Assembly: GCA_044231675.1 (NCBI GenBank)
Contig: CM094664.1
Coordinates: 14,168,162-14,232,161, forward strand
Direction of reading: 5' to 3'
From: Synchiropus picturatus
Lineage: Eukaryota
DNA: 64,000 nucleotides
Positions 1 to 60,680 of this stretch are shown piece by piece. The notes under the pieces were generated by a model, which worked only from the letters and a program-made list of their open reading frames with translations, was not told where the DNA came from and ran no database searches. Position numbers and translations under genes: made by a program. Positions within the stretch are counted from its first letter, which is position 1; the number at the start of each line of letters is the position of its first letter.

Positions 1-849
1 GGACCCCATTTACAAATCGTGTTTCTAAACGTGTAGTCCGAAGTGCTCCCCCTAGTGGCAGGCGAATAAGATGAACGTTAAGTAAAATATTTGTCATAAA
101 TTCTCATGATGAGCCCTATATCAGGAAGTGAGGTAAAAATACATTTATTTAAATAAATGAAAAATCATTCAAGAAAGACCTGTAATCTTTAAAATTAATA
201 AATAAATCATATCCATTCATTATTTATTCAAAGTGAATAATAAAATTAATGAAAAAGAAAAGAAATGAATTTTTAAAAAGTACATTTATGACAAGAAGAA
301 CGACGAGGAAGACAAATATTTGGCCAGTCAAAGTGTCTGAGGAATATGATTACATTAAAATGGAAAAATAGTAAAAAGGAATTCAGAAGTTAAACATCAT
401 TTGCTATTTAAATGAAGAATTTGAAAATGAAAGGGACAGAAAAAAATGAAAGTGTAGTAAAATCATAATAAATGGAAGGCAAATGACATATATTTAAATG
501 AGTCTGCGGCAGGTGAGAGACACTGGGCAAATGAAGGAATCAGGTGACGAGTCTCTTTGCAGACAAAAACAGGTCATAAATTCACTGAAGAGTCAGCGTT
601 GACTTGAGTTTAATGGAGGTTAAACCTGGTGTGAGCGACAAGAGCCAGCTCTGTGAGGTCAGACATGTCAGGCACACGAGTCCCACTAGCTTCCTGTCAT
701 GACTCCTGACCAGTCACCTGAGATGAACGACTCTGAACTACAGTAGACAACTACCAAGTGCGCCCTCTGTTGGACGGTACATGCAGTAGAACAGGAGTAT
801 CAGGGTCACCCAGCCACCTCGGTGATGGACCTGTAAGTGGGCGGAGGCC

Positions 850-1160
850 CCGGGGCAGAGCCATAACTTGCTTTAGAGGTCAGTTGGAGATGGACCACTC
901 CATGATATGCTGCAGTGGTTCCACTGCGAGTCTCTCATTGATATCAGGGACCCTCAGTCTAGGACCATGTAAAGTCAGAAGCTAAAGATCTGCTCAGTGA
1001 GCTGGTGAGGGAGGGAACCGACCACCCCGCCCTCACCCCTCCTCCCTCTCCTCTCTCACCCCTCCTCTCTCTCTCCTCCTCGGTTCAGTCGCAGACTCCT
1101 CTGGAGCCGGGGAGAGTTGGTGCGCCTCTCTCCTGCCGCTGCTTCTCTCGCTCCCTCATC
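850..1160 (+). promoter_or_regulatory. Putative promoter / 5'UTR of the CNTNAP-like gene: CT-rich, CpG-rich block with Kozak context catcATGg
   Basis: GC- and CpG-rich block immediately upstream of the exon-1 ATG. No TATA box. The transcription start was not determined. Confidence 0.3.
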
Positions 1161-1245
1161 ATGGATCCGCGGACTAAAACCACCACTGGGATTATTTTTC
1201 AGATGGTCCTGCTCCTCTGGGTCTCACCCCGGACGTCAGGAGAAG
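1161..1245 (+). CDS. cntnap2: CNTNAP-like exon 1: start codon plus signal peptide (MDPRTKTTTGIIFQMVLLLWVSPRTSGE), ends phase 1
   Basis: ATG in Kozak context, hydrophobic core, GTGAGC donor at 1246. Its phase matches exon 2. Confidence 0.65.
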
Positions 1246-1633
1246 GTGAGCGGTTCGTCTGTCCGGTCGGCGTCAAAGTTCCGACTCATTTAGCGCGGTT
1301 TTATCCCGAGTCGGAGCGCTGGTTCTCCTGACCGCGCGGTGATCCGACAGCAGAATTATTCGCGTTGGCAACATTGACTTTGCTGCTCATATTTGCTGAC
1401 TAAACAAGCAGCTCTCCATGATCCGGATCATCGTGGTCCGTGGAGGATCTGAGCTTCGCACCTGAAAGTGGACCAAATCAAACATTGACTCGGCGAAGAC
1501 AGTTCATAACTGCGCGTAAAACCTGTTATCGCCGCGCTGCGTGCGTGTGCTGGGGCGCGTGTTTGAGAAGTGGATTATTGTCTGCTGCTTTTCCCACACA
1601 ATTAATTATCCGCGTCAGCTTCTCTGATCATTA

Positions 1634-1660
1634 ATGCAAATACGCATGTGACGTCACATG
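1634..1660. promoter_or_regulatory. Octamer motif ATGCAAAT (1634-1641) adjacent to 16-bp perfect palindrome CATGTGACGTCACATG (1645-1660) containing a full CRE TGACGTCA flanked by CATGTG/CACATG E-boxes, in intron 1 about 400 bp downstream of exon 1
   Basis: Both motifs read directly from the sequence. They lie inside the promoter-proximal CpG island. Confidence 0.5.
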
Positions 1661-1824
1661 TATCAGATTATCACTGATCTTTCGAGCAGGTGCTGCTTGT
1701 TCTCAGCGTTTACGCAGCATCTTCATCAGTAAAAGCCAGTTGGGGCCGAGCCCGGGAGCACGACACGTTAACCCTTATGGACCTCGAGCGTTCACACGAC
1801 AGTCGCCTCACAAACGCCACCAAG

Positions 1825-7800: not shown

Positions 7801-9814
7801 TCATTTCTCAGAGAGAAACTAGCGGGTGGCTCACAGGTTGTGAGAGAGACGGCATCACAGGCGATCGACCGCAACACCACGGTTATGTTCCCAGCTCCGT
7901 GAGGCGGCTGGCGACTGGCGACCATGTGAGCTCGTATTCTGCTGCGTTTTTTGGTCCATTTCTCAGTCCTGGTGAAAAAGCCGGATGAGTTTACCGCCTG
8001 GGCTCATCTGTGACTCTCAGGACAGCGTGGCTCTTTCAACACCGTTCTGGTCCACTGTTCATGTGAGGACCTCTCAGGGGAATGAAACCTCCTCAGAATT
8101 CGTCCAGCTGTAGCTTTGTTGTTCACAGTTGAGTGGTCAGGCCTCTTGGCAAGACGGTCGTGGGCTGGGATCCAGCTCGAGGCAAAGATTTTCTTGTTCT
8201 CCCTGTGAGGGGGTCCCCTGGGCACTCTGATTTCCTCCCACCGCACGAGAACATACACGGGTCGGTGACAACTCTCTCTTACGATTCGATGTGAGTGGTT
8301 GTCTGTGATGGACTGGAGACCTGTCCAGGGACTCCTGTGGCGTACAAGAACACTTCAGATTCACATGAAAGTTTAGAATCGTTCATCCACCCCAGAATCG
8401 ATTCACTAGCAACACCTTCCAACAAAGTCACTTCTAACTTGACTTTTTGGAAATCAGCGTGAAAGTCCATGGAGGGAGCCGTTTGTTGACTCTGGGCCGA
8501 GAATAATCCATCTGTTCACGGTGAGATTATCGAGGCTGCGCTGTGTTTATGAAAGCAGTAAATACGTAAGGAATCACCTGGAGGCCGATTTAAATTCAAG
8601 GATGCTAGTGCCGACTCCAAACAGCTGGCGGGGAAGCCTCACAAAAGCGCCGTCTTCTTTAAACCCCTGGGCTCGGGGGAAATATTAGGAAGGCTCCATT
8701 AAATTCCCAAAGTGTCCCTTTTCCCTCTCAGGATTACAAGACGAGCACAAAGCGCTGAGGAAAAAGTGAAAATTCAGACTCTGGTTTGGTCCTGTGGGAT
8801 TGTTTACCGTCTGGGCTGGTTGTTTTGTTGAAGCCGAGGAACATCAGACTCCGTCAAATGTAAACGTGGAGATTGATGACGGCAGAACCGGGCTGAGGGT
8901 AACTTTCCGCCATATTTCTGCCTAACAGTCGTTTATGGAAATGTGTGCGAGTGGAGCCGAATGAGACGTGATGAAGTCAAGGTTAAGAACGGAACCTGCC
9001 AGTCATGAATCTGGGTTATTAACCTGCCGCCAGAGGATTGTGAGGCACCGACCGCGACAACAAACCACCTATTTATGACTTCAGAATTCATCTCTGATGA
9101 CAGGTGTTCTGAGCTCTGATTTGTTCCCCTTTCATTTATTCCTCAACTATATCAGCTGAGCACTCATAATGACTCTCCTGGAATGTGATTTGCTCCTTTT
9201 TATTGACTTCTTATTAAAGCTTATTTTCTAAAATGTGAGCTCCCCCAAGAGGTGAAATAAAAAAATGATTTCACCACTGAAAAAATATATTATTTTAATC
9301 GCTAAATGACCCCTCTTTGCCTAATCTATTTACAATTAAAATGAAATATCAGCTATTATCATAAAGTTATGACACAATGACCTGAAATTATTTACAAAAC
9401 ATGATATACTTAAGATACAATAATGATTCTGCAATTAAAGGTTATTAAAATAAAAAAAAACAGAAAAAGACAAGAGGCTCTACATATGTCATCATAAATG
9501 TCACTACAATAAATAAGCAATGATTTTATCAGGAAGAAGAAGTATAGCTACAATCTTGAGGCTTGGACATGAAGACACTCGGATGAGAGTGTGCGTACCA
9601 TGTTGTGATGTCATTCTTCCCCGCCGCTACAAATTGTTAGCTTAAAATGCTATGCGGCTAACGAAATGCTAGCAGATGTCAGAAAGACGAGAGAGACAAC
9701 ACGCGTTTCCGCAACCATTTCTTGTTAGCGTTTCGACGACTAGCTTAGGAAGCACGTCCGCGCCACTCATATGACTCGCCCCTGAGATCCAGATCAACCA
9801 CAAAAATGATAGAG

Positions 9815-9912: not shown

Positions 9913-11689
9913 TGAGCTGAGCTCTTCTTTCCCGCCACAGAGCCGTGACATCATCACAGGGTCCCTCGCCTTACAGCAGAAGTTACAGGCAGTAATCATT
10001 TTAATTCGGTGAATTGCTGTTGTGATGGTTTCATTTGCTTCCCCACGCAGCCTCCCACAGCCGCGTCAAACTCTCATTTCTGTTGCGGACTTTCAAGAGC
10101 ACGTCGTTGATTAATGTGGCGCTGTAAAGAGCGCGTGGGCCGCTCGCACTCGCCCGCACACGTGTCAACCATCTGTCACCGCCGGCCCTTTGACAGGAAG
10201 AGAGTCTTTTATTAGACGACTTCTCTTGATGGCTCTTTCTTATTTGATTTGCTGCAGTCGAGACGAGAGAAGGTTTAATTAAAATAGCTCCGAGGTGAAG
10301 TCACACTGGAATAATGCGTATGTATTTATTAAGATGAAGACAATTACATCTGCACTTTATCTCCACTTCCTGCTGCTGACTGGTTTCACTTGAGTTTTAA
10401 TGTGCGTTTGCATGTTTTAGTGCTGATTTTTAATATTATTTATTTGCTTTTTGGAAGTGATTCTATTTCTTTTAGCCAAAATATTTTTCTAGATTCTTTA
10501 GGAACGCTTTCTGTATATTAACATTTTTTTAAGATATAATTTTTGTTTTAATAGTTTAGTATTTGTTACATTTCAAGTTCATTTATTTCCCCCACATTTC
10601 TGGTTCTCAATTTTCTTTTACATTTTTTTCTATTTCCGACTTTTTTTCAGGTCATATACTGTATGTAAATAGATTTACTTTTTTTGATAATCATATTTTC
10701 CTCAATTTTTTTGTGTGAATCATATCACCACATTCTTAGACCACATTTTTTAAGGACATATTTTTTTGTTTTGTTTCACTTTGTTTTGACTAGTTTGATC
10801 TGCTTTTATTACCTTTTTGACTGTTATTTTTCATGTGATATTTATTTGCTTGTCTTAGAAAAATAAAAAATAGATAATTTTAAATTAAAATTAACACAAA
10901 TTTTCCCCCCTCTACATTTTTTTATAAAATAAAAGTTCAAATTTCTGTATTTTCTTCTTAAAATATTTCCAGCTTCTTATTTCACTCACGCATTTCCCAA
11001 CAGGCAATTGTTTTGCTTCTAACAGAATTTTTTTTTTGTGTCTGGTGGTGAAGGAATGTTTTTATGCTATGTTGCTAAGATTATTATCTCCTCGCCTCCG
11101 CAACATGTTCTCTCCTTCCTCCTACAATTCCTCATCAAACTTTCATTCTGAAGTGAAGCCGATCAGTCACAGCTTCACATCTAAACTGAGGAGTAGCTTG
11201 AGAGCCATAAAGAACACGGGTCTCATAATGGCTCTCCTAATTCCTCGCTACTGTCTCTTTGTTGTTTGATCAATCTGCTTTTTCAGCTCTAATGAGTGGG
11301 AATAATGATTTAATGAGTTAGCGGGGGCGGCGGAACACGCTCGGCGCCATATGCCAGACGGAGCCGCCGTCAGATTCCGCCGTCCTCCTCGATTCATTTG
11401 GCGTCAAAGGCGCTAATGAAAGCGCTCCTGCCATGTCTTCACCTTCAGGATATTAGTTAGCGCCACGACGCCCTGCATGCCAATTAATCAATTAACAAGT
11501 GGGCCACGGGCGGCCCGGAACACACACCGCTGCTGCTGAATAATGCAGGAGTCGTAAGCAGCGCGCTTGATACGGCGGATCGCACAGGGAAGTAAATGTC
11601 ACACCTGGAGTCACAACAAGAGTTTGGTCGGCTGCGTGAGGCTTGTTTATCGTGGCTTCGTCGTTCAGCCGAGACGACTTTTACCAAAA

Positions 11690-12380: not shown

Positions 12381-14884
12381 TTACAGTGTTATTCCAAAAA
12401 AACACCTTGCCTCGCTCATCTGGAGTATTTTGTGCGAAACACCTGAGGTTGCGGCGCCTGAGAGGAGAAATGTGAGAGCAGATTCTCTCGCTCACATCTT
12501 TGTCAGGAACTTTAGAGAAGCTGCCAAACTCTGCCGAAGCTATTTCAGGAGGAAGTGGCGAGGAATTATTTGCGGTTCCTTCTGTGTTCTCTGAAAACCA
12601 AGCCTCATTATCCTGCGTCCTGCCATGGAGGAGCAGCGGGCTGGTCTGGTGGAGCTCAGAAGAGCGAGACCTTGTGTTCTCTGCTGTGTGGGGGGAGATG
12701 GATGGAGCTCATCAGTATTCAGGGTCTCCGCTCAGCGCTGCAGGAGCTTCAGACGCAGGTGAGGGAGCGGCGTCTTCAGAGGAGCGTCCGTCCGTCACGT
12801 CCAGAGTGATTGATGGTGTCTGTGAGACCCCCACACTCTTCTGACTCTCACTCTCAATGCCCACTCTGACACAAGGGGTTTTATTCGGGAGAAATGTTTC
12901 TGTGAGTGTCGGTGGAGTCTCAGCTGAACCTGACTCGCACAGGTGGAGACAACATCAGCTGTCACTCACACTGGTGGTGTTACAGGAAACCAAACAACCA
13001 GGTCAGCAGCAGCTTCGACTGCAGAGGCTTCTGTACGTGTGCAGGAGAGAACTTCGCTGGACAGGCTCCAGGGAAGTGGCTCTCACATATGTGTGGTGCA
13101 AATGTGTGTGGGGAAGTGTTTGTTGCTCATGAGATGTTTGTGTGGGAGGATTTCAAGTGTGAAGATAAGGTGTGTTTCCCACACTTCCGAAAATATTTTA
13201 TAGTGCACATGAAGATAAACGTGTGTGTGTGAGGAAAACACCTGAGCAAGGAGGATCACACACACACGTACGCACGCACCAGGCAAATACGTGTGCGACT
13301 TCACTCTCTGATGGAAGAGAGAATCTCTGCACATGGCTGTGTGACGTGAAGATTTTCACTTTCTGCTGTTACATATTGCATCCAGTTGCTTTCACCATCG
13401 ACTCACTTGTTGATGCCGGCTTCAGGGGCCACGACCCTAGATAGCTGGGACACATCACAACTACATGATATAAAAGCCGGAACATAAAGTAGACACCAGA
13501 AATTTGTGAGTGCGGAACAGTAAACGTGCTGACTCGACACCCGGCTGACCCGCAGTCTTTCCGACTGCCGACGCTGTCAAACTCAGAAATGTCAAGATTT
13601 CGGCTGTTAACCCGGCTAAATGCCAGCGGAACACACTTTTTGTTGCCGTACCCTTTTCCAAACCTCCAGTCTGACAGAAGACTGTACGCTGCGGCGGCGC
13701 CGAGTGCTTGGTATTCAGGACGCCGCTCCTCCTATACAGCAGGGGTCACTGCCGAGGGTCAGCGGCAGGCGGCTCCAGCAGGTATCCAACATTTAGCTCC
13801 ATTTTCCTCCCACATGACCGCTGCTCAGTCGGTCGCTGAAATGCCACACTCCGGCGCAGGAGCGGATCTTTCTTTGAAGAGTCGGTTGGCGTCGTGTCTG
13901 ATTCACCTTCACAGCGATGTTCCACTTCAGCTCACCAAGGCGAACCTACGAGTGGAAACTCCACTTGTGAATCCACATGGGATTTCCTGCTCAATCCTGC
14001 TCATGAAACAACTTTGAAAACTTTCACACTTTCACAACTTTCGCACAGCTCCTCCGCTGAATCCAAGCGAGGCTGAACTGCACTAACAGCTCACTGGGCG
14101 GCAACATGAATCATTCACGGCAACAACAAACAGACCTGCTGCGAGAACACAACTGAATCACAAACGACAACACAAGATCATCTGACTTGACATGACTCAC
14201 TTAACACCAGCGCGAGTCACAACATGGAACAATGACTCACAATGACAAATCATTTGTCACTTGACACAACTGTGCGTCACTTCTGAGATCAGTGACTTGT
14301 ACTAAAATGAGTCACATGCCAGAAGATTGAATGAACACTTCTTATACACCTGAGTGAGAAACGTCATGCTAAAACAAAGGACTAGAAGCCTCAATTCATT
14401 CCACAGTGAATCACTGAACATAACAGTGAGTCTCAGCGATCAACCAATCTCAACACTCAGTAACAGCTTATCATGAAGCACAACAGACGAATGATCAATA
14501 ATTGCAACAAGAGCCACGAGTCACAGAAGAAAACGAAGAATCTCGACCCACTGAGTGCATCTACGCTTCACTAACAATGACACTGAATCACTGTGTCAAT
14601 GATAGTGAGTCACTACAGAGTGACTCAGAGATTAACAAATCGTTGAAGACAAATGGTGGAGTTGTGAGTCACAAAGACTCAAACTTACCTGCACAAGAAC
14701 GAATCAGTAAATGATAAAAATCTTCTGACTTGTTAGTGAATGACTCACTTGAATCATGTCAACAATAATAGCTAAACATAATGACTCAACATCTGAGTGG
14801 ACACTACAACAAATCCGTAAACACAATGAGTCATATCCTTGGTGACTCAAACAGATTTGTCTATAGCAGATTTGTGGGCTCTGA

Positions 14885-15058
<174 letters not shown>

Positions 15059-18000
15059 TGACCTCCAACTCAGTCAAGGTCGATGGATGAAGAAGACTGT
15101 GAGATGGTCACTCCCACTTTTGCCTGAGCAAAACTCCAGTCACCTGGATTCATTTCCTTCCCAAAAAGTCATGTCACAAAGACTCAGATATGTCTTGAGT
15201 GCAGGCCAAGCGATGGACAGTCGACATGTTTGACTCATGGGTTTCTGGAGCGCAACAATTCACACAGATTCCCTTTCATGTCCCCGTCTGTTGGCTCCAT
15301 GTTTCTCCAGCAGTGGGAACTCATTTAGTGGCTTTTGTCCGCTGTGATCCGACAACAAAGATCGCTGGAGGAGAGACGACAGACGAACAAATTGGAGCTG
15401 CAATCATCCGTCGCTTTAATTGGAAGTTAAAAATATGAAATGCAATTACAGCCTGTTCTGGTTTGTGTGATTTGATTCACAAGCTTTTGTTGGCTGTTGT
15501 GACTGTTGGAGAGAATTCTGAGGATAAAGAGAGTGGAGTCGTCCGCTGGAGGCAAGTCCCTCTCAGCACCACTGCACTGGTGAAAACAAATGACTGAAAC
15601 AACAGGAAGATGAAAATAAAATGCAAAATCTGAAAGTCAAATGAATAAATAAGTAAGTAAATATGTGAAAGTAACAATAAGAACTAATCAGAATTGGAAT
15701 AAATGTCTGTCGTATGATATAATTTTTATGAATGAAATCATAAAAACAACATGGAATATGAGTTATAGGTTATAATATTGCCTTACATTAACAAAAAAAT
15801 AAATCTTAAAATGTAAATGCAAGCGATAAATAACATGTTCTAAAATTGATGAACATAAAAATGTTGTGCAAAAAAACAAAATTAACAACAAACAAAATTA
15901 GCATTCATAACAATACAATCACTTTGACATTTAAAAAAATGGTGCTTGAAAATTAAGAATTTAATATAATTATTTAAAAAAAAGATGAATAAAATGCCAG
16001 GAATGATAATTGAAGTAGGATGAAACTTTCAAAAATAAAAGTATATAATACTATAGAATGAAAATGATCAGAATCATAAATAATAAAGATCAAAATGCTT
16101 AATTTATAAAAAATAGTCACCAAAAATATAATGAAGCGGATGTTGAAAATACAAATTGTATGCAACTTTGACGTTATAATAAATAATGACACCAGACCTA
16201 GAATGAAATAGATATTTTAGCGTGACCTCTTGAAGCGACCCCGATGACCCGGGGCCTCAACATCTGGACTCCCCACGTGCTCTTGAGCAGCAAACAATCA
16301 GACGCAGTCGCTCACATATTTGTGAATGAGTGACATTTGCTCCGGCTTTCTCCCGTTCGTCCGTCAACTGGAATATCGCTGCATTATTGAGGAGCCTTGT
16401 CGTGGCTCCATCTGCTCCTCCTGCCTCCTCGCCCAGCTCCTCAGCAGCAGAAGGTTCAGCTCCACTGGCTGCACACACACACACGCACTGCACCGCTCTA
16501 ATAACGGCCAGAGACAAATTGAGCAGGTCTCAGGTGTCACACTCTTTACGGGTGACAGATTGCAGGAGAAGCATGAATGAAGTGAAACAGCACTCACTCC
16601 AGGTTTCACTTACGACTCCTCTGTTCTTGTCATCTTCTTCACCACCATCATCATCACAGTAGATTAGATCTTTGGGGGTTCGACTAGAGTGTGTTTGCAG
16701 AACCACACTGAGCCCATTTTACCAAGCGTGGAACAGACCATTCCTTTATCCAACTTTCAGAAACAAAATAAAAATATAATATCACAATTTCATTTGCTTT
16801 TTATTACACCTTTTTTTTCTGAGAATTTTATTTTCTAAAAGAAATACCAAATGTATTTGTTTTTCACAAATAATTATATATTTTTTTATTATTTTATTTT
16901 TAACAGTCAGTAAGTCGTCACAGCTTTGACTCGCTCTCAGCTGGGACTCGACCTATTGATGACAAAGAGATTGTGACTTATAGAGACGTTATAAACTCTG
17001 TGTGAAAGTGTGAGCTCAAATGGCTGATGGAGATGATTCGACTCATCTCTGAACTGAAGACAGGAGTCACAGTCAGGTGAGTCAGGGATGAAGGCACTGA
17101 GCTTCTCATTGAGATGCAGAGAGTAGCTCGACTAAAGGCAACAGCTCGACCGATCCGATTGCGTCTTAGTCACCCGGTTTCAGTCGAATTACTGAGTAGT
17201 CGCCTCCGTGATGTGGAGTGGCGCCATGAGCTCTTCATCCCTAATGGTTCCTAAAATCGTAGAGGGAGAGCAATCGAAATTGACAGGTAGCAAAAAGCCG
17301 CTTCGGACCGTTATATCGAACTAACTTGTAACTTGACAGCGATCGTGCTGATTAAACTGCTAGTTTAACTTCAGCGATCCAGAATCATGCGAGGGTCTTG
17401 TATTAGCCTCCGACTAATATAGCAACAGAGGTTTGCAAATATTTTAGTAATTGGAGGTCAAAGTTCACGATCTTGTTTGGATGAATTACACAATGAAACA
17501 GGGTTTTCTCCCAAAATATACATATAATGTCTCCAAAGTTTGTCATGTGATAGACACTACCTTCCTGTTAGGATATGATGGTGGTTTTGACAGAGGTTTG
17601 CAAACTTTTTAGTAATTGGAGGTCAAAGTTCAACATACTTCACTACAACTAAAATCCGTATTTACATGGACTACACAATAAAAACAAGTTAAAGGAATAC
17701 AGGGATTGTGTTTTCATCCGCAAAAAGAACCAACAAGGCTTCATTCAATTAATTTATTTCGAGTTGCGGTCTGCAAACGTAATGCTTCGTCTAAACGCGC
17801 AATGTTTTTTTTTTGTTTTGTTTTTTTGCTGCGGATGACTTGACTGTGTGTCGGATAGCTTGACGCTAACGTGGTGGTGTCGTCGTCTCCTCAAACCAAC
17901 TAACCACGTGTTCTTATGAGAACTAACGATCAAAACGACCCGACCCTGAAGGTAGTTGAAGACAAATCTGCAGATCATCATCGTCGCGAGTTATAAAATT

Positions 18001-19040
18001 GATATCAGGTTTGTCACGTGTTCACCGCAGACACACTGCATCAGGTTACACACACGACTTCTCAAAAGTGTCGGCTGTTCGGCATCATTACGAGTTTGTT
18101 TACTTCCGCTGCGTAGCGGAAGCTCGCGCGACCGCACATTAAGCGGCTCTTAGTCGAGCTACATGCTAGTTTAGTCCAGCTATTAAGCCCATTATCCACG
18201 TCCGTCTGAGAAAAATTCCCCAAAAATATAGCAGATTTTAGTCGGACTAACGCAATAATTGGGATTTCTGAGGCGTCATTGCATCTGAGAGTGACTCGAA
18301 AGGACCGGATCCGAGCAACAGGTGAAGAAGTTTGGAGACCAAGTTAGACACCAGGGGAGGAGAGTCAGAGTTGGACCAAAGATGTTGGAGATGAAGAAGA
18401 GGAGGACAACCAATGAGGTCCACGATGAAGGAGGACAGGAGCATGTGACTGGAGGATGATGACGACAGAGGAAGGTGGGGGACCTGCTGAGGGGAGATGC
18501 CCGGAGAAGTAATGCTCAATATGTTGTAGTGTGGTAGGAAGCAAGTGTGTGTCAGTGAGTGTGTGTGAGAACCAAAGTGCTTGCTCAGGTCAATGTGATG
18601 CCTCCGAGCTCAAACACCAGATGGACAGAATTCGAAAGAAGCTGCTGACCAGTGTCCGTCTGAGTGTGCAGGTTCTCACACACACAGGTCTGTCTACTTG
18701 TTTTAGTGAGGACTGTCGTTGTCATAACCCTTTCCCCAGCCTCGCATCCTAAACGGAACCATTAAAACTAAATGGCTGAACTTGACCTTTACTCTTAACC
18801 ACCTGAAACACAATTATAATAAGCTGTTTTGTAGTTTAAATCCTCAAAATGTGACTCGACAAAGTAGGGACAGGCCAAAATGTCCTCACTCTGTTGGTTA
18901 AAAACTCATTCACCTACTAAAGTAGTGTGTCGCAGACCTTCTGTTTTGATGACAATTGTAGCGTATGGGCTTCAATCCTCAACTGAAAGTGGTCTGAGCC
19001 GCACCACAGGACCTGAGGTCAGAGGTCGGAGGTTGTTTAA

Positions 19041-19292
<252 letters not shown>

Positions 19293-43465: not shown

Positions 43466-45639
43466 CGTGGCCTCAGGACACTGCACGGACGGTGGACAGC
43501 AAAACTGTTGTACATTCACACGCAGTGAAGATTGGAGTGTAAATACTGAACCACCTTTACGTCCTGGTACGATCCTGGGGCGACATGTTGCTGTGTTTTT
43601 AAGATAAAGACAGGGACGGACGATGCTTCTGTGGAACACACGGGGAAACCAACGCTGCGTCGCGTGATGGACACTTGACGTTCACACACAGGTGTTTCAG
43701 AAATGTCACACTCATGAACTGTCCTTGCTTGTCTAGTCCAAACATTACGGTACGGAATCTTAAATAACTGCACCTTTATAAAAGCTTTTATTGTGGCTAA
43801 CAGCGAGGCTAGTTCCGCAACTCAAGTAGACAAGCAACTGCGACGTGTCATTTGTCATACTCTGACAGGAAAGAAAGAAACTTTACGATGTAAATGCGAT
43901 CAACTTTCTTGCTCCTCTCTTTTAGACATTAAGGGCGTTTCCGATAAAGGATAACTCAGTCAAGCTAGTTGTTGAAAAAGTAAGATCATATTTGTGTAAA
44001 GTTTTGCTTGATTAGCTTTGTGGCTAATAGGTGTTAGCACCGTAAACCCTGGAAAAGACAAGCAATGAAATAAGGAACGTGTCCTTGAAGGTGTTTTATA
44101 CTGAAGTCATGTTCAAAAGAAAAGACGATGAAATGTATGTGGATTTCAATATTTGTGAATTCTGTTGTGTCAGTTTTCTTTCTTGTCTACTCCAGACATT
44201 ACGGTTAAGAATACTTTCATGGGTAAACGCACCGACTCCCCACCAAAACAGTTGTTACCAAAATGCTGTGAATAGACGCGCGAGAAAGATCGGCTGGTTT
44301 CTAGGCGCAGAAGTCGTGTTCCCGCCTGGAAACTTTTCTTTTCTACCTATTTTATATTAAAATGTGGAGTAAAGTCTTCTCGGTGAGTCTGCTCTGATTC
44401 TTCTCCGCAGTTCTCATCTCGGGATTCGGCTCACAACAGTGAGGCCCGGGACTAGTGCTGCTGTTTGAAATGCTAAACTGCATCAGGAGACGAAGCTGCG
44501 ATCTAAATCAGGAAGTTTGCTTTCTTCTGAGAAGTTGCTGGAAGAAGGACGTGACGTTGGCCCGCTAACGTGCTAACAGCTCGACCAAAGACCATTTCAT
44601 CTTTTACACTGAGGAGATTTTAGCTCCTCTGTCGAGTGTTTTATTTCCTTTTCCACCTTCACTTTCACTCTCGACAGAAGCGGTCTGTAGCTCAACCTTC
44701 CCGGAGGCTGCTGGAGGCAGAGTCTGGAGGCTGGACTGCATCACGTACACCAGACATGAAGAAGCACTTGAACACCCTGCGGAGCTCAGGGAGGTGGGTG
44801 GGAGGGAACCTGCTCGCAAACTACCACTTCCATAAAGGCTTCTGCTCTCACTAAAACCTGCTGAGTCACCGCGACGAAGGACTTACAATGCTAATTAGCA
44901 TTAGCTAGCTGTACAATAGCAAGCATATCCATGATAAATTCTCAGTAAGACATGAATATATATGTTCAGTCTGAGTTCATAAACTGACCAGAACTTGGTT
45001 TACGAACTGTTCTTCAGTTTGCAAACACAACTCAGTGTTCCTGCATTGCTCTTCAGCAGCTGTGCTCTCTTGTCTCCAGCCCGTCCCGGCTGGGTGTTGG
45101 CCGTTACGGCGTCACTTCTTCTTCCTCGAGAGCAGCTCCGCTTCCAATTTAGCTCCTATGTGCTGCAACGCTGACATCTGTTTTGATGCCAAATGCTAAT
45201 GAGGCGCAGAAACGGGAGACTAAAGGGCGACGGGGGAGCACGAGTCTTTCTTCTCTTATCTCCTCTTTTGAATCAGATCAACAGCTTCGCCGTTCGCCAT
45301 CAGATGCTGCAGATGTTGTTTACCAGCCAGAATGTCGAGGAGCTTATCAGATTCTCACCAGGGGTTTCAAGGAGCGCCCCCTGCTGGACTGTGCATAAAT
45401 CTCAATTATAGATCTGAGGAAGAACTTTCATGAGCGCCACTGAAATGTGGCCAAAACGTGTCATCAAATACAGACTCCATTTTAGCATCCGCTTCCTCTG
45501 TTGGATCGTAAGTCGGATTTCCTTATCCGATTACACCTCCACTTTCAAAAGAACACAACTAGTGTTAAGCAAAACAAGGAGCACCGTACAGCCAAGTTAA
45601 CATGCACATATTGACGTTTACCGTGCCTCCATCTTACGT

Positions 45640-47560: not shown

Positions 47561-49860
47561 CCGCTGCTGCGGATGTTGACCTCTTTGCTTTTGAAGTCAC
47601 TGAGATCCGGGTGATGAAACACAAGACGGTCGACTTTCTGGAAGCACCTGAGAGATGTTAGCATTAGCAACGTTAGCATCACAGTCCACCACACTCTTTT
47701 TTTAAAATCTACAATAAAGAAGCCCAACAAAAGTTTGAAATTCTGGAGCTGAAGTGCATAAATACATTTTTAAAATAGATTGACAGAAGAAACCTCTATG
47801 TATGCTGTAAGTTTGTTATTTTTTTCTTTCTAAGTTGATTTTAGCTGTGTTTTTTGGGACTGTTTTTCATTATTTATTCATTGTTTGTATTGTTTAAAAT
47901 TATATATATATTTTTTTTTCAATGCCTATTTAAGAAAAAAAAATATATATATATTATATTTTCGCTGTTGTCCCAGTTAATTGTTGAATTAACTTATTTT
48001 TTCTTGCTTTATTATTTATTTAGATTTAGATTTAGATTAGATTATTTTTTTAGATTTCTGCGATGATCAGCATTGGTTATAAAAATAATACAAATTAAAA
48101 AAAAGGTGGAAATATAAAATATCAATAAATGGCAGAAATGTACAAAAGAACCATCAATAAATAAATATAATATTCAAAAATCTCAGCAGTTATGGAATTT
48201 TATATTTCATATTGATTTTTTCAAGGTTTATTATTTTTTTTCTTTGTTTTTATTTTATCCATTTTGTTGTGGGTTACTTATTATTTATTTTGTGGTTGGA
48301 AAATTAAAAATAAAAATAAAAAATAGGCCATGTTTTGCCAATAACTTGTCTCCATTCGATCCAGTTGACGTCTTCAGTTTACCTCAAATTCTGTTCTCTT
48401 TTTTGACTTGTCACAACAATCGTATTCATGATTTAAAGCTACATTCTTTCAATATCTTTTGCCGGTGACTCGACAATTATTGAGTCTGACTCGAGTCGTT
48501 GGTGCGCTCATATAGCCCAAATAGTCTAAAAGAAGCCAAATGAGTTTTGAGCTGCATCATTTGCTCTTCAGCAAACGTCTCCAGGGAGCTCTAAATCCGC
48601 CCTCTGCTCTCCTTCACTTCTCCTGGACATAAATGAGTGAAAGTAAACGGCTGCGGGATCCTGAGGTGAAGAGTTTCCCGCCATGATTTCCCCGGAGTCC
48701 CGCAGCTCCTAATTTTGCGCCGGCCGGGTCATTCCGGTGCACTTGTCAGACCTTCTCACGGCTGGAGATATACGGCGGCGGCGGCGCCCCCTGCGCCCGC
48801 AGCGCTCCAATAACCGCAGCTCTCATATGTTTCCTTGTAAAACCGCATCAATACGTAATTTACTTTTCTATTCCAGGACTCGTAAAACTCTCACACCTTC
48901 ACCGCCGCCCTCCTTCAGCTCGGTTCTCCAGAGAGTCTCAGGTACAGAGGCGCTTTAAACTGACAGCCACCTGCCTGAAGGGGTTAGCTAAGTTGCTAAC
49001 TGCTGTGATGCTAACAAATGTTACGCGTATAAACGTTTGTTTCCACTGTAGCCATTAGGTTGCTCTTCCACTCAGCTCGGGCGGCACCGAGGTTCTGACA
49101 GTCCAAGCCTGTCTGTGTCTCTTGTTTTCAGCTCAGTGTTCCTCGACTGATCTGAGGATCTGCGGAGAAGAGACGCTCTCCTTCATTACCAGCATCACGC
49201 CGCCTGTCTGGAGCCGCCGTCGCGGATCATTAGCTCGGAGAATAATGACGCACAAACACACTGTTTGCTTCTGAGGAGCGCTGTCATCCATCAAAATTCC
49301 TCGCCAGCTCAAGTTGATGGAGAAGATGATTCATTAAAGCAGATTCGACTGTGAAGGTTCATGCACGGCGCGTTGTCACCCGCCACTCTTCACGGAGCGA
49401 CTTCCCATCATGCACCTCACCCGCCGCGCTCAGAAAACAAGAGCTCAAACATGTCGCCGTCCGCGTGACCTCCATCTGCGGATGTTTCAGGCAGAAGCTT
49501 CAAACTTTTCTCCGTCAAAGATTCAACATTGTGATGTTCAAACGACTCGACAGATGCCAAACTTGTCAGGTGATTAGCCGACGAGTCGTTGCTGGAAACA
49601 ACAAAGAGATGATGTGAGGAAGAGGAGGAGGAAGAGGCTCGCTGCCACGTCGCCGCTCTGCTTGACTATCAGTCGACTGCAGCCGGCAGAGAAGACCAGT
49701 GAAGAAACCAGTGAATCAAAGAATCAGTTCTGCTCAGATGGCGAGCTGCAACACTCTTCTTTGAAGAGTCACTTCCTGTTCCCGTATTTCAGAATAAGGC
49801 TCTGTGTCAGTGTCAGAGCTAATGTGCACGCAGACCAAGCTAAACCTGGATAAAGGTTTG

Positions 49861-50505
49861 AGGACTCACTTGGAGGTGTATGACTCCCCATTTGTTGTCC
49901 TCGAAGTGACTCACTCACAGGTGTGTGACTCTCCATTTCTAGTCCTCGAGGTGACTCACTAGGATGTGTGTGACTCCCCATGTCTAGTGCCTGAAGTGAC
50001 TCGCTTGGAGGTGTGGAACTCCCCATTTGTAGTCCCTGAAGTGACTCACTTGGAGGTGTGTGACTCCCCATTTGTAGTCCTTGAAGTAACTCACTCTGAG
50101 GTGTGGGACTCTCCATTTCTAGTCTTCGAAGTGACTCACTGGGATGTGTGTGACTCCCCATTTGTAGTCCCTGAAGTGACTCACTGGGAGGTGTGTGACT
50201 CCCCATTTGTAGTCCCTGAGGTGAGTCACTGGGAGGTGTGTGACTCCCCATTTGTAGTCCCTGAAGTGAATCACTCGGAGATGTGTTACTCCCCATTTCT
50301 CGTCCTTGAAGTGACTCACTCTGAGGTATATGACTCTGCATATCTAGTCTCTGAAGAGACTCACTCGGAGGTGTGTGACTCCCCATTTGTAGTCCCTGAA
50401 GTGACTCGCTGGGAGGTGTGTGACTCCCCATTTGTAGTCACTGAGGTGAGTCACTTGGAGGTGTGTGACTCACCATTTTATAGTCCCCAAAGTGACCCAA
50501 TCACC
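49861..50505. repeat. 45-bp minisatellite, about 14 tandem copies (consensus GTGACTCACTGGGAGGTGTGTGACTCCCCATTTGTAGTCCCTGAA); unit length is a multiple of 3 and is free of stops in one frame on each strand
   Basis: GTGACTCACT recurs at 49906, 49951, 49996 and 50041, exactly 45 nt apart. ORFs on both strands encode 15-aa repeats (MGSHTPPSESLQGLQ on - and VPEVTHWEVCDSPFV on +). Confidence 0.9.
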
Positions 50506-51599
50506 ACCTCAAAACACAAGTCTGAGTATTCACGAGCTCCATGAGTACTCGCCCCATCCTTCAGAGTGTTTTGAGGCAACCTCACTGAGCTACTCTGACA
50601 CTGACAGTTCCTAGATTCAGATCCACAGACTTGAGTCAATGACTGAGTGACTCAGTGTAGTTACCCACTCAAGCAGCTGGGACTGACGTGCCAAGTCCTG
50701 TTGAGGACTCAAGCAACTCAAGAGGTTGAACTGTGGATTCCAAAAGTCAGGCCGCAGTTGGAGAGAAAAGTGAGTCAGAGTCAGAGGATAATGTGGTTTT
50801 CCGAGATGCAGAGTTGTGGCTCAGTTTATTGGGACACTGCTGGGACTCCAGTGGCTCTGCTCTGACTCCCCTGAGACAATGAAGGGAGCCAGCGATCCGT
50901 CAGCGGTCGGGGGAGTGAAGGTCACTTCTAGCCGGGAGATCTCAGCGAGGAGCACGGCAGGAACTGGGAGAGATCCATCACTCGCCGCGCAAATTGGAAA
51001 GAAACTTCAGGAAGACAAAGTGGAAGTTGGGAATATTTCACCTTGAGTGTCTCCTCCTCGTCGTTCTTTCATGGCGGTTGGTATCTCCGTCCCGACTCTC
51101 CGCCGGCGGCGTCTCGTCTTCGCTGCCTCCGCCAGACGTCATTTGAGTCATTTGTTCACAAGCTCCTCTCAGAGTCAGAGAGAGAGAGTCCATACAGAGT
51201 TTGTCTTTTAATGTGGGAAATGTTTTACCCGCTCGCCAAAGTTCAGACTCACTGACTCGTCCACTTTTTTTTTTTTTTTAAACAAGCATAACACAAGTTT
51301 GTTTTGAAGTTTGCGTCCAGGAACTCGAGTCACTCTGGCTCTACACATATGCCTGAGTCGCCTCATTCCGTGAGTCAGAAGCGGTTCCTGTTTGTGCCTC
51401 CAGTGATGTCACTGTTGATGTAGCGCACAGATTGTAAAACACCGGCGTGACCCCATACCGTACGACCAGACGTTCCTGTTCCTGTATTTCAGAATAAGAG
51501 AATGTTGATCTTTCAGACTGGCAGTGACCAAATGTGAGCTAAACTGAGAAGATAAAGAGGTGAATATGGGGCGACTTGGTTCAAGTCGAGACACAAGTT

Positions 51600-54003: not shown

Positions 54004-54799
54004 TGCTAGCGAGCTCAGCCTCACTGTGTGACTGGAACATATCAGAATCAGAATTTTATTTTTTTATTGCCAAGGTGAGTGAGGATCCCACCAACCAGGA
54101 AAGTGCTTTGGAACAACGTGCAATAATGAACAAAACGTAATAATAATAAGAATAATGATAAGAATAATAATAAACAGAAAAATACAAGAGATATCGAGAC
54201 ACATAATATTGCCGGTGAGGTGAGGAGAGGATTTTTAGGATTCAAATGAATGTAAATGGATTCAAGGGGTAAAAGCAGCGAGCAAACCCTTTATCAATTT
54301 TATTGTATTATTTATAAAACCTCATGAATATTTACCGCCTTCATTTACAACAGCGTGACGAGGGAACTGTGCTTGTCCTGGAACTTTCCTGAATTCTGCC
54401 AGAGGGGACTGAAGAGTATAAAACTTGTTATATATTGTTGTATATTGTTGCATGTTCGGAGCGAACGAATACTTGTCAGCTGTCGCCGTTTCCCGCGGCT
54501 GCTGCAGCTCTGGCGCCACCTGCAGGTCAAACGTCGCATTCTCACTTGTATCCTCTGCCCACGACCTCCAGAGGTCACGTGATCGTCCGGCTGAGGATCG
54601 GTAAGATGGATGAACGGCTGAGTGAATGAATGGGTGAACGTGACAACACTCAGATCCCGCTCAGGTGAGCGCCACCTCACTGTCAACAAGACACGAGCGC
54701 CTTCATGTGGCGGAGTAGCGTACTGGACCAGAACAAGCGACTGAAAAGTAAACACAAGTTAAATGACTGACTCGGCAATGACGTCATAATACTTTTTTT

Positions 54800-56885
54800 T
54801 ATTGTGACAGGGAGTCATAAAAATGGAGAGAACTAAATACAATAGAAAAAGGAGGGCTGTGGATGTACAGAGGGACGACAGACGGGTGCAGCGCTCGACG
54901 GTTGGCACAGAAAAGGAACACTTGAATTTGGCTTCAGAAATAACTATAAAAAAGAGGAGCAACGTCTTCATCACAAGATCCTTCATCAAAACATGCTTTG
55001 TAAAATCACAGGGTTTCAGTAGCTTCATAACAAAGATGCACACGCAACACGTCCATCTGTGGCGTCGACAGGCCGAGTACATGTTCCAGATTTTTAGAGC
55101 TTTTTTTTATGTTTTTAAGACGAGCACTAAACAACTGGCCCGTCTCCAGGATGCTTTTCATACTAAAATATATTATCGTATCAAGTCGACTACAAGTTCA
55201 CTACACTGTAATAAATAACTCGACAGAAAATATAAAAATAAAAACATAAATATGAAAAAAAAAGCGACTAAAACTGTGAAATTAATACTGACAACAACAA
55301 AAAAAAAAACGGTACAAAACCATGAAAACACTGGTTGGTAAACTGTTCACTCGTGTTTGTTCCCAAAAATTTTATTTTATTTATTTAATTTTTAAACATT
55401 CATAACAATGTAATTTATTTTCAGATAGATTTGTGACACTTTTACCCATATTTTGCAGCAGTTATTTTTAGTTTGATTTTTATCTATTTAAAATATTTTT
55501 TGCGAAAATAGCTTTTGTTCTTTTCATCTCGAAATAATTCAATTTCCAATTTCTTTCTTTCTTATATTATAATGCCACAATCGATGCTCCTCAAGGATCA
55601 TTGGGAAATTTTTCATCACAGTGCAACTTCTCTGATTTTTTTCTGAAGACATTCTTCAAAATAAAACCCTGAAAACTCACTGTTATTTTAAAATTCATGT
55701 ATAAAATTGGAGTCAAGGTTTGGTCTGGCATCTCCTCACGTTGAATATGTTTATTATTTTTTATTATTAGAAATAGAAATCAAAGCGAAACAAATGGCAC
55801 ATCATTTATTTACACTAACCTTTGGTGTTGTGTTAGTGGAGGAGCCACAGAGGTCAAAGCACAAACATGACTTTTAATCTTCTCTGAAACCAAATTATTT
55901 CATGTAAAAAAAGAGGGACAAAACACTTACACGCTTCAGTAAAAGTTATTAGTGAACCTAAAAACATGATCACTCACATAATATTTCATTTTATTTTAAA
56001 GCTGCAGAAAATAATGACCATCATTCATCTGCACTTTGGATCACCACAGGGGGCGCTGCTCGTCCCACAGTGCAAACGTGAAAACTCATTTTTTTTCGAA
56101 GAAGCAAAGGTGGATGTGACAGTGGTTTGATGAAAGCGAGGGAACAAACATGAGTGAACGTGGGTAACAGACAGCGGCTACACGCGACAGAAACACTGTT
56201 CAATGGCACTTTAACAGCACACCGGTCTTGCATAAGGCTGGAGGCGTCGCGCGGCTCCTCGCTTCAGACCAACCCGGCGACATCCGGAGCATGTTACGAA
56301 GAGGCGCATGGGTTTTTTTTCAGAGCCAAAGACGCCCCCTGCTGGCTTTTGACTTCCCTGATAGGACTGATTTGGTGATACTGAAGCCGCGGTCACGTCC
56401 CGCCCCTCCCTCCCCGCCCCTCCCTCGTTTAAGGCTAACAGTCAACTAAAACGGTCGCTAGCAAAAGGCTACACAGTCGACGACGTGTCGCTAGCGGTAA
56501 CACGCGAGTAACACTGAAGGGCGTACGTGTATCCGCACAGGAATACTGTAGTGCACAGGTTTGTTCGTAGAACTCAATAAAATACTGATTCTCGGAGACA
56601 TTGGCAATAAAAAGGTTTAGAAATAACTTTACAGGTTCCGATCTAAAGGTTAGTAACACTGACGCCATGACAAACAAACAACCGTCTCAGTAACTAACAA
56701 AGTTTAAAATCTTCTATAAACAATTTTAACACTGATATTTTTGTTAAACTTCACAAGGAAAAAAAAAAAGGATGTTTTTTTTTTTTTTCTCTTTTTCGTT
56801 TTCAGGCACGCCGGGGTGTTTGTACACAGTAGTGGACCGTTTTGGACCAGGCGGCGCCGGAGTCCCACTCACCAGCCCAGGAGGT
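54800..56885 (-). other. zeb1: 3'UTR of the ZEB1-like gene (minimum extent to 55284 from miR-200 sites; poly(A) site not fixed; candidate AATAAA on the - strand near 54797-54802 and around 55370)
   Basis: Region downstream of the TGA at 56886-56888 on the - strand. It contains 8 perfect miR-200 family 7-mer seed matches. Confidence 0.6.
55284..56734 (-). promoter_or_regulatory. Cluster of 8 miR-200-family seed matches in the ZEB 3'UTR. mRNA-sense CAGUGUU (miR-200a/141) at + coordinates 55327, 56192, 56510, 56655 and 56728; mRNA-sense CAGUAUU (miR-200b/c/429) at 55284, 56542 and 56581.
   Basis: The + strand carries AACACTG five times and AATACTG three times within about 1.45 kb. The random expectation for 7-mers at this density is far lower. 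The ZEB1/ZEB2-miR-200 feedback loop is established biology. Confidence 0.75.
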
Positions 56886-57521
<636 letters not shown>

Positions 57522-58011
57522 TCACTGACTTTGATTATCTGTTACTGACTCCCAGGTTAGCAATAAGAGTCTAATCTAAAACTTGTCATGACTCTAGTCT
57601 CCACCAGAGGGCTCCCTCTGGACTCTCAGGGAAGCACTTGTTTCTTGGAGACTCAGCAAAGTCAACAGGAATAGAATGAAAACTGTGTGGAGTCCAACAG
57701 ACCTGAGTGAGTCCTACAGACTCGCACTGATACACAGGAAGTAACAGCGACCGTTTCAAGCAATCCTACTGTAAAGCTTTGGGCAAACAGAAGTTCATGT
57801 TTGCAGAGTATTATACTTGTCCACATGGCGGTGCCAGAGCGCAAATGAACCTGCTTGAAGAGTCGACTCATCCTCTAAATGCCTCAGGAAGCTTCATGTC
57901 ACCATCACTACTGTTGACCAGCACACATTCCCCTCCATCTTAAGCATCTGTGACTAGTGAGTTCCGTCTTCAGCTCAGAGAGATTTTCATCCAACACAAG
58001 GGCGTCAGTAC

Positions 58012-58189
58012 CTGTGTGTTCGTATTTGTGTCGCAGCAGGGAGCTGCCCTTCATGAAGACCTTGGAGCAAAGGTCGCAGGGGAAGATGCCGTTCTCCAGC
58101 CGCCGCTTCTTACAGGGAGAGTCCTGGTCGCTCTGCTCGTCCGGCGCCGGTGAAGCCTGCTCTGAGTTGGTGTCTGGCTTCTTCTCCAC
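58012..58189 (-). CDS. zeb1: ZEB1-like exon: first C-terminal zinc finger (VEKKPDTNSEQ...[34 protein letters not shown])
   Basis: ctgcAG acceptor, GTACTG donor on the - strand. Matches ZEB1 [36 protein letters not shown]. Confidence 0.9.
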
Positions 58190-58265
58190 CTGCAGACAAA
58201 TCCATCCATCAGACACACACCACCACATCAGCTACAGTGACCCAGGAACGTGTTGGGATTCTGAC

Positions 58266-60436
<2,171 letters not shown>

Positions 60437-60680
60437 TTAGCGGCTTGTTAGCAGACTGATGCCAGGCATGTCACACCTGGCCAGGTGTTGTTGTCGCCAA
60501 ACATAGCGGCCTCATCCACGTGTTAATGTGCTCTGGGACGTCTGAATCGAATCTGCCGGGACGTTTCTGGGTGTAAAATCTCAAGGGGGACCCTCTGTGT
60601 GATTTATTTGTTGGCAGTGAAAGTCCACCGAATACCGGACGCTAAGCTATGAACAGAACAGCCTTGCATCGCAGACTGAC

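What the first reader, a model, noticed from the sequence alone, without database searches (positions are those of the whole stretch)
1595..1715. Intron-1 proximal element: octamer plus 16-bp perfect CRE/E-box palindrome
About 400 bp downstream of the first exon of a neuronal gene sits ATGCAAAT, followed 3 nt later by the perfect palindrome CATGTGACGTCACATG. This is a full cAMP-response element embedded between mirrored E-box halves. A TAATTA homeodomain core (caattaattat, 1599-1610) and a FOX-like GTTTAC (1707-1712) lie nearby. A 16-bp perfect palindrome is unlikely by chance, roughly 1 in 65,000 per site. It looks like a composite activity-dependent (CREB/ATF plus POU plus bHLH) enhancer. 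Human CNTNAP2 intron 1 is known to harbour regulatory elements bound by FOXP2.
Basis: seen in the sequence. Interest (0 to 1): 0.6.

Follow-up and report, generated by a model that had tools for sequence, protein, structure and literature searches.

The report
Promoter-proximal CRE and octamer site cluster
A textbook cAMP-response element next to a POU octamer lies 400 bp into intron 1 of a dragonet cntnap4-like gene (not cntnap2); it is shared only with close relatives, so it is an ordinary, untested candidate transcription-factor site.

Summary
The motifs are real: ATGCAAAT (1634-1641), 3 nt, then the perfect 16-bp palindrome CATGTGACGTCACATG (1645-1660) around a full CRE.

The palindrome's length is not significant. 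The 64-kb window holds four non-microsatellite perfect palindromes of 16 bp or more, and 61% of shuffles give at least one.

The gene is misidentified. All 120 best protein hits are teleost "contactin-associated protein-like 4/3", and the whole gene spans about 42 kb.

The element sits 400 bp past exon 1, in a CpG-island-like stretch (observed/expected CpG about 1.2).

- Conservation among dragonets: the 16-mer is identical in Synchiropus splendidus. Neosynchiropus ocellatus keeps only the 12-bp core TGTGACGTCACA, the octamer and CAATTAATTAT.
- Motifs that fail: both E-box halves are lost in N. ocellatus. The FOX-like GTTTAC is already lost in S. splendidus.
- Deeper conservation: nothing matches in Aulostomus (two paralogues), Pampus or Chelmon, by blastn, MAFFT or an unfiltered profile search. 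Other blocks of intron 1 do align at that depth.
- No TATA box lies within 300 bp.

Best reading: a lineage-restricted, promoter-proximal CREB/ATF bZIP site with an adjacent POU site, probably bound constitutively rather than acting as an activity-inducible enhancer. Function is untested. Interest is low.

The parts
1161..1245 (+). Coding part of exon 1 (MDPRTKTTTGIIFQMVLLLWVSPRTSGE plus the first base of the next codon) of a cntnap3/4-like gene. The GT splice donor is at 1246-1247.
   Evidence: Read from the sequence. It is 100% identical to residues 1-28 of S. splendidus contactin-associated protein-like 4, XP_053739004.1 (P0126). The called gene starts at the homologous ATG in N. ocellatus (L001 6001) and S. 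splendidus (L006 6001).
1201..1800 (.). CpG-island-like stretch (observed/expected CpG 1.1-1.2, GC 0.48-0.56) covering the end of exon 1 and the start of intron 1.
   Evidence: Flanking 200-bp windows have observed/expected CpG of 0.0-0.6.
1399..1660 (.). Block conserved among dragonets at the start of intron 1. The motif cluster lies at its 3' edge, and alignment to N. ocellatus breaks down directly after 1660.
   Evidence: Identity to N. ocellatus is 88% over 1401-1560, 92% over 1561-1660 and 34% over 1661-1750. The three-species alignment A4 has 92% mean column identity. The profile built from it finds nothing outside the dragonets.
1599..1609 (.). CAATTAATTAT, with a homeodomain-type TAATTA core at 1603-1608.
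   Evidence: Identical in S. splendidus and N. ocellatus.
1634..1641 (+). Canonical POU octamer ATGCAAAT.
   Evidence: It is the only + strand copy in the window. Identical in S. splendidus and N. ocellatus.
1645..1660 (.). Perfect 16-bp palindrome CATGTGACGTCACATG. The full CRE TGACGTCA is at 1649-1656, and the conserved 12-bp core TGTGACGTCACA is at 1647-1658.
   Evidence: single exact match. Identical in S. splendidus at L006 6485. N. ocellatus has CCTGTGACGTCACACG at L001 6498-6513.
1708..1713 (+). FOX-like GTTTAC. It is not conserved and probably not part of any element.
   Evidence: S. splendidus has CTTTAC, and N. ocellatus cannot be aligned here. The hexamer occurs 18 times on the + strand of the window, and its reverse complement GTAAAC another 17 times.

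Best explanation
The element is a consensus full cAMP-response element (GTGACGTCAC) with a canonical POU octamer 3 bp upstream and a TAATTA core 36 bp further upstream. It lies in the CpG-island-like 5' end of intron 1 of a dragonet cntnap3/4-like gene.

Inferred mechanism, from established CREB/ATF biology rather than from anything shown here:
- A bZIP dimer (CREB1, CREM, ATF1 or another ATF) binds the two TGAC half-sites while the central CpG is unmethylated.
- An Oct/Brn POU factor occupies the adjacent octamer.
- Together they add to promoter-proximal activity or help keep the island open.

No TATA box lies nearby, and the site is at least 485 bp downstream of the start codon. It is therefore more likely a constitutively bound CRE/TATA-less site than a strongly activity-inducible enhancer.

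The four outer bases that extend the conserved 12-bp core palindrome to the perfect 16-mer (and that form the E-box halves) are incidental. The element is restricted to the dragonet lineage.
For: - **Sequence:** an exact full CRE, an exact octamer and a TAATTA core.
- **Context:** observed/expected CpG is 1.1-1.2 over 1201-1800, and the element starts 400 bp after exon 1.
- **Conservation:** the 12-bp CRE core, the octamer and CAATTAATTAT are unchanged in S. splendidus and N. ocellatus. Intronic stretches that align between the window and N. ocellatus are only about 76-84% identical.
- **Block level:** 1561-1660 is 92% identical to N. ocellatus, in the top 13% of non-coding 100-bp windows.
- **Local chance:** a full CRE plus an octamer appear together in 0.045% of shuffles of the 600-bp island.
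- **Not a repeat:** the region has no second copy in the window.
- **Literature:** CREB/ATF bind TGACGTCA, and methylation of the central CpG blocks binding (PMC7532970). CREB binds proximal CRE promoters constitutively, and efficient induction by neuronal activity was seen only at CRE/TATA promoters, where the TATA box lies within 300 bp downstream of the CRE (PMC5740062). An Oct-1/CREB partnership has been reported at the cyclin D1 promoter (Boulon et al. 2002, seen only as a title in the reference list of PMC11333461).
Against: - No binding, chromatin or expression data could be obtained.
- Conservation reaches only to family depth, where much of the intron still aligns. Within the block the motifs are no better conserved than their neighbours, so the constraint cannot be pinned on the motifs.
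- The block is absent from Aulostomus (both paralogues), Pampus and Chelmon.
- The transcription start site is unknown. The CRE is probably more than 500 bp downstream of it, outside the -500 to +300 bp zone that PMC5740062 calls proximal.
- The motifs were picked post hoc by a reader scanning 64 kb.
Confidence: 0.5

Rival explanations
1. The cluster is a chance set of motifs with no regulatory role. The block looks conserved only because the dragonet species are close and because unmethylated CpG-island DNA mutates slowly.
For: - 16-bp palindromes are expected by chance in a window of this size.
- The other long palindromes in the window also happen to contain recognisable motifs: a TAATTA core in AATGCTAATTAGCATT at 44887, and two CAGGTG boxes in ACACCTGGCCAGGTGT at 60473.
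- Window-wide counts of the CRE and the octamer are at expectation.
- 13% of non-coding 100-bp windows are at least as conserved as this block, and several longer blocks are conserved better.
- Nothing is detectable outside Callionymidae.
Against: - Thirty-one motif bases (12 + 8 + 11) carry no substitution across three species, against a background divergence of roughly 20% to N. ocellatus.
- The two exact 8-mers lie 3 bp apart inside a promoter CpG island, where both co-occur anywhere in only 0.045% of local shuffles.
- By my recollection of Zhang et al. 2005 (PNAS), not checked here, full CREs in unmethylated promoter islands are usually occupied.
Confidence: 0.35
2. One reading: a composite, activity-dependent CREB/ATF + POU + bHLH (+ FOX) enhancer, comparable to the FOXP2-bound element in CNTNAP2 intron 1.
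For: All the motifs are present in the window. The CRE and the octamer are conserved in dragonets.
Against: - The gene is not cntnap2.
- Both E-box halves are lost in N. ocellatus.
- GTTTAC is lost in S. splendidus.
- No TATA box lies within 300 bp, which argues against strong inducibility.
- There is no deep conservation.
Confidence: 0.07
3. The CRE and octamer form the upstream part of an alternative, intron-1 promoter that drives a downstream alternative first exon or a non-coding transcript.
For: The element lies in a CpG-island-like stretch that continues to about 1800. The gene does use alternative first exons, since isoform X2 starts with MMTTEE.
Against: - The only alternative first exon found lies at 18456, 16.8 kb away in intron 2.
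- None of the six isoforms listed for the two Synchiropus species starts near 1700-2500.
- There is no TATA box.
- Sequence downstream of 1660 is poorly conserved.
Confidence: 0.05

Closest known systems
Promoter-proximal full CRE (TGACGTCA) bound by CREB/CREM/ATF1, of the CRE/TATA-less class
   Same: It has the exact 8-bp palindrome with G/C flanks (GTGACGTCAC). From memory, this matches the promoter-type CRE motif in HOMER. It lies in CpG-rich DNA next to the first exon, and no TATA box is within 300 bp.
   Different: - It lies downstream of exon 1, at least 485 bp from the ATG, rather than within about 300 bp of the transcription start site.
- Occupancy and inducibility are unknown.
- It is conserved only within one fish family.
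Paired octamer and CRE, as in the cyclin D1 promoter (Oct-1 potentiates CREB; Boulon et al. 2002, seen only as a title in the reference list of PMC11333461)
   Same: A canonical octamer lies directly next to a CRE, with a 3-bp gap.
   Different: The spacing and orientation in cyclin D1 could not be checked because the paper is not held. No evidence for cooperation exists at this locus.
FOXP2-bound regulatory element in intron 1 of human and mouse CNTNAP2 (PMC3131290)
   Same: Both lie in intron 1 of a Caspr-family gene.
   Different: The gene is a different paralogue (cntnap3/4-like). The only FOX-like hexamer here is not conserved even within the genus. No sequence relationship was shown.
Teleost conserved non-coding elements (CNEs)
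   Same: It is a non-coding block with above-background identity between species.
   Different: True percomorph-depth blocks exist in the same intron, at 8892-9024, 11424-11507 and 12651-12733. This block is not one of them.

Membership tests
Full cAMP-response element (CRE) | 8-bp palindrome TGACGTCA | tested here: met
   Exact match at 1649-1656.
Full cAMP-response element (CRE) | Central CpG unmethylated (needed for CREB/ATF binding) | not testable with these tools
   There is only indirect support: observed/expected CpG is 1.1-1.2 over 1201-1800, and the CpG is retained in three species.
Full cAMP-response element (CRE) | Promoter-proximal position (-500 to +300 bp of the transcription start site, as defined in PMC5740062) | tested here: inconclusive
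   The start site is unknown. The CRE is 488 bp downstream of the ATG at 1161, so it probably lies beyond +300.
Activity-inducible CRE/TATA promoter element | [quoted passage not shown] | tested here: not met
   No TATA[AT]A[AT] or its reverse complement occurs in 1345-1960.
Full cAMP-response element (CRE) | CREB/ATF occupancy and cAMP or Ca2+ inducibility | not testable with these tools
   This needs ChIP or CUT&RUN and reporter assays.
POU octamer site | ATGCAAAT consensus, retained in related species | tested here: met
   Present at 1634-1641 and identical in S. splendidus and N. ocellatus. Binding was not tested.
E-box (CANNTG) bHLH site | CANNTG retained in orthologous sequence | tested here: not met
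   The window and S. splendidus have CATGTG and CACATG. N. ocellatus has CCTGTG and CACACG.
Forkhead (FOX) site | GTAAAC/GTTTAC core retained in orthologous sequence | tested here: not met
   S. splendidus has CTTTAC, and N. ocellatus cannot be aligned here.
CNTNAP2 intron-1 regulatory element | The host gene is the cntnap2 orthologue | tested here: not met
   All 120 best hits are named contactin-associated protein-like 4 or like 3. The gene spans about 42 kb and its protein ends in KEYFI.
Conserved non-coding element (percomorph depth) | Detectable in orthologous introns of other percomorph orders | tested here: not met
   No match was found in Aulostomus L002 and L003, Pampus L004 or Chelmon L005 by MAFFT or by an unfiltered profile search. 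blastn, run on L002 and L004 only, also found nothing. The weak profile hits cover only the GT/GC-rich model positions of about 140-190.

The most novel reading that the evidence does not exclude
Dragonets (Callionymidae) gained a high-affinity CRE plus octamer module in the promoter CpG island of their cntnap3/4-like gene. Other percomorphs lack it. The module would put this synaptic adhesion gene under cAMP/Ca2+-CREB control specifically in this lineage, as an example of regulatory turnover.
Probability: 0.12. Interest if true: 0.25.

Novelty: new member of a known kind. Interest (0 to 1): 0.12.

Why it matters
If the site is functional, it is one more CREB/ATF-POU site near the promoter of a neuronal Caspr-family gene, and a small example of lineage-specific turnover of regulatory motifs.

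The practical lessons are cautionary:
- The gene was misidentified, so the analogy with the FOXP2 target CNTNAP2 does not apply.
- The palindrome's length is not statistically meaningful.
- Only three of the five proposed motif components survive a comparison with the nearest available species.
- The better candidates for conserved enhancers in this intron lie elsewhere, at about 8.9, 11.4 and 12.7 kb.

Tried and rejected
1. **Repeat or transposon end.** Self-blastn of 1247-2000 against the window found only itself. The repeat finder found no matching arms beyond the 16-mer.
2. **Structured RNA.** An Rfam scan of the whole window at gathering thresholds gave no hits.
3. **Bacterial-type promoter and terminator scan.** Uninformative for a vertebrate locus.
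4. **Translated-ORF route to more species.** I considered using an ORF across the block to find further species. No ORF spans the palindrome, so I ran no further search on it.
5. **Orthologous loci that could not be fetched.** Scomber (P0005), Takifugu (P0057) and S. picturatus (P0122) are not on record. The Thunnus gene is too long for DNA to be returned.
6. **A shared ancestral layout.** By eye, the distant species seemed to share TTAATT, about 45 bp, an ACGT-core motif and then (GT)n. Neither MAFFT nor the profile search supported this, so I dropped it.
7. **Link to the alternative first exon.** The MMTTEE exon lies at 18456 in intron 2 and is unrelated.
8. **Literature.** A full-text search for Cntnap4, CREB and promoter listed no paper whose title or abstract addressed CREB control of a CNTNAP4 promoter; I opened none of the listed papers. 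Boulon et al. 2002 is not held.
9. **A wasted call.** One search printed tblastn results for all 120 proteins by mistake. It was redone properly.

Full report
**1. Observation**

- ATGCAAAT lies at 1634-1641, followed by the 3-nt spacer ACG.
- The perfect palindrome CATGTGACGTCACATG lies at 1645-1660 and contains the full CRE TGACGTCA at 1649-1656.
- CAATTAATTAT is at 1599-1609, with its TAATTA core at 1603-1608.
- The palindrome does not extend beyond 16 bp.

**2. Chance**

A rate of 1 in 65,536 per site, applied to 64,000 sites, predicts about one such palindrome in a window of this size.
- Dinucleotide-preserving shuffles give a mean of 0.97 perfect palindromes of 16 bp or more, and 61% of shuffles contain at least one.
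- The real window has four outside microsatellites. Two of the other three also "contain" familiar motifs: AATGCTAATTAGCATT at 44887 has a TAATTA core, and ACACCTGGCCAGGTGT at 60473 has two CAGGTG boxes. This shows how easily a palindrome can be read as a composite element.
- Window-wide counts are at expectation: 2 full CREs against 1.08 expected, and 3 octamers against 3.12 expected.
- Within the 600-bp CpG-rich stretch 1201-1800 the combination is unusual. A full CRE appears in 1.65% of shuffles, an octamer in 2.7%, and both in 0.045%. That test was made after the motifs had been chosen.

**3. Gene and context**

- The coding part of exon 1 is 1161-1245 (MDPRTKTTTGIIFQMVLLLWVSPRTSGE), with a GT donor at 1246.
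- Exon 2 lies at about 14933-15046 and exon 3 starts at 19074. The last exon ends at 43462 with KEYFI.
- The whole gene therefore spans about 42 kb on the + strand.
- A search of 5.8 billion proteins returned, as all 120 listed best hits, teleost proteins that NCBI names "contactin-associated protein-like 4" and Ensembl/UniProt names "contactin associated protein like 3". None is named CNTNAP2.
- The gene is therefore a cntnap3/4-like Caspr-family member.
- The window comes from a dragonet (Callionymidae). Its DNA is 92-95% identical to the Synchiropus splendidus locus L006 and about 78% identical to the Neosynchiropus ocellatus locus L001.
- The palindrome starts 400 bp after exon 1, inside a CpG-island-like stretch. 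Observed/expected CpG is 1.1-1.2 over 1201-1800, against 0-0.6 in the flanks.
- The region has no second copy in the window and no Rfam match.
- No TATA-like sequence lies within 300 bp on either side.

**4. Conservation among dragonets**

- S. splendidus has the identical 16-mer, at L006 6485.
- N. ocellatus has CCTGTGACGTCACACG at L001 6498-6513. The 12-bp core TGTGACGTCACA is kept, but positions 2 and 15 differ, which destroys both CANNTG halves and the 16-bp symmetry.
- The octamer and CAATTAATTAT are identical in all three species.
- The FOX-like GTTTAC is CTTTAC in S. splendidus. It lies in sequence that cannot be aligned to N. ocellatus.
- The half-CRE CGTCA at 1613 is also not conserved.
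- In a pairwise alignment of 19 kb with N. ocellatus, the block 1561-1660 is 92% identical. Identity falls to 34% over 1661-1750.
- That places the block in the top 13% of non-coding 100-bp windows. Several longer blocks elsewhere in introns 1 and 2 reach 93% or more.
- Thirty-one motif bases therefore carry no change across three species, against a background divergence of roughly 20%. However, the motifs are no better conserved than their immediate neighbours within the block.

**5. Conservation beyond dragonets**

I fetched orthologous loci from Aulostomus maculatus (two paralogues, L002 and L003), Pampus argenteus (L004) and Chelmon rostratus (L005). In all four, exon 1 and its CT-rich 5' flank are recognisably homologous.
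- blastn of the window against L002 and L004, the two loci readable in the scripting sandbox, aligns up to the exon-1 donor and then stops.
- MAFFT places the motif cluster opposite gaps in the other species.
- A sequence profile built from the three dragonet copies (A4, model R1) finds only those three copies.
- With filters off, the profile gives only weak hits to its GT/GC-rich positions of about 140-190, matching microsatellites. No hit covers the motif cluster at positions 200-268.
- None of the four loci has a full CRE in the stretch of intron 1 that was read, roughly the first 1.3 kb.
- Other parts of intron 1 do align at this depth: 8892-9024, 11424-11507 and 12651-12733. The comparison therefore had the power to detect conservation.

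**6. Interpretation**

What is shown:
- an exact full CRE with G/C flanks;
- an exact octamer 3 bp away;
- a TAATTA core;
- a CpG-island context close to exon 1;
- conservation to family depth only.

What is inferred from established CREB/ATF biology:
- Dimeric bZIP proteins bind the palindrome when the central CpG is unmethylated (PMC7532970).
- CREB binds proximal CRE promoters constitutively.
- Efficient induction by neuronal activity was seen only at CRE/TATA promoters, where a TATA box lies within 300 bp downstream of the CRE (PMC5740062). That feature is absent here.
- An Oct-1/CREB partnership has a precedent at the cyclin D1 promoter (Boulon et al. 2002). I know this only from the title in a reference list, because the paper is not held.

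My best explanation is a lineage-restricted, promoter-proximal CREB/ATF plus POU site cluster that contributes to basal promoter function (confidence about 0.5). The main rival is a functionless chance cluster that looks conserved because the species are close and island DNA mutates slowly (about 0.35).

**7. Novelty and score**

A consensus CRE near a promoter is among the best-known kinds of regulatory site. This copy has not been described, so at most it is a new member of a known kind. There is no functional evidence, no deep conservation, and the original framing used the wrong gene. Interest is 0.12.

Noticed in passing
window 8892-9024, 11424-11507, 12651-12733 (intron 1); 16493-16559 (intron 2): These non-coding blocks still align to Aulostomus and/or Pampus at 69-91% identity. 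They are the real percomorph-depth conserved elements of this gene's 5' introns and are better enhancer candidates than the palindrome block.
   Followed up: partly
window 18456-18474: An alternative first exon encodes MMTTEE and is followed by a GT donor. It matches the N-terminus of isoform X2 of S. splendidus and S. picturatus cntnap4-like (P0121, P0124), which skips the signal peptide and exon 2. A block at 18547-18666, 93% or more identical to N. ocellatus, lies just downstream.
   Followed up: partly
window ~56800-60400, minus strand: ORFs here encode ZEB-type zinc-finger clusters ([26 protein letters not shown]; [29 protein letters not shown]; [58 protein letters not shown]). A zeb1/zeb2-like gene appears to lie tail-to-tail with the cntnap4-like gene.
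   Followed up: no
window 49772-50541: A minisatellite of about 45-bp units reads as repeated LQMGSHTPPSESLQG-like peptides in a long minus-strand ORF.
   Followed up: no
window 142-159, 44887-44902, 60473-60488: Three further perfect palindromes of 16-18 bp: CATTTATTTAAATAAATG, AATGCTAATTAGCATT and ACACCTGGCCAGGTGT. The last two also contain textbook transcription-factor cores.
   Followed up: partly
window 54779-54786: The second full CRE of the window (AATGACGTCATAA) lies in AT-rich sequence between the two genes.
   Followed up: no
L002 and L003 (Aulostomus maculatus CM107631.1, 1.79-1.88 Mb and 2.04-2.14 Mb): Two cntnap4-like paralogues lie about 160 kb apart in divergent orientation. Their exon 1 and 5' flanks are nearly identical, which suggests a recent duplication or gene conversion. 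Several other species also list two such genes on one chromosome.
   Followed up: no
L006 19675-26930 (S. splendidus) against window 14620-14631: S. splendidus carries about 7 kb in intron 1, just before exon 2, that is absent from the window species. It is probably a transposon insertion or a deletion.
   Followed up: no
window 1020-1085, with L002 5600-5890, L003 5660-5890 and L004 3800-3890: A CT-rich (polypyrimidine) microsatellite-like tract immediately upstream of the ATG is present in every species examined. A (GT)n tract 0.5-0.7 kb into intron 1 is present in all except Chelmon (L005), where only a degenerate GT-rich stretch lies at that position.
   Followed up: no
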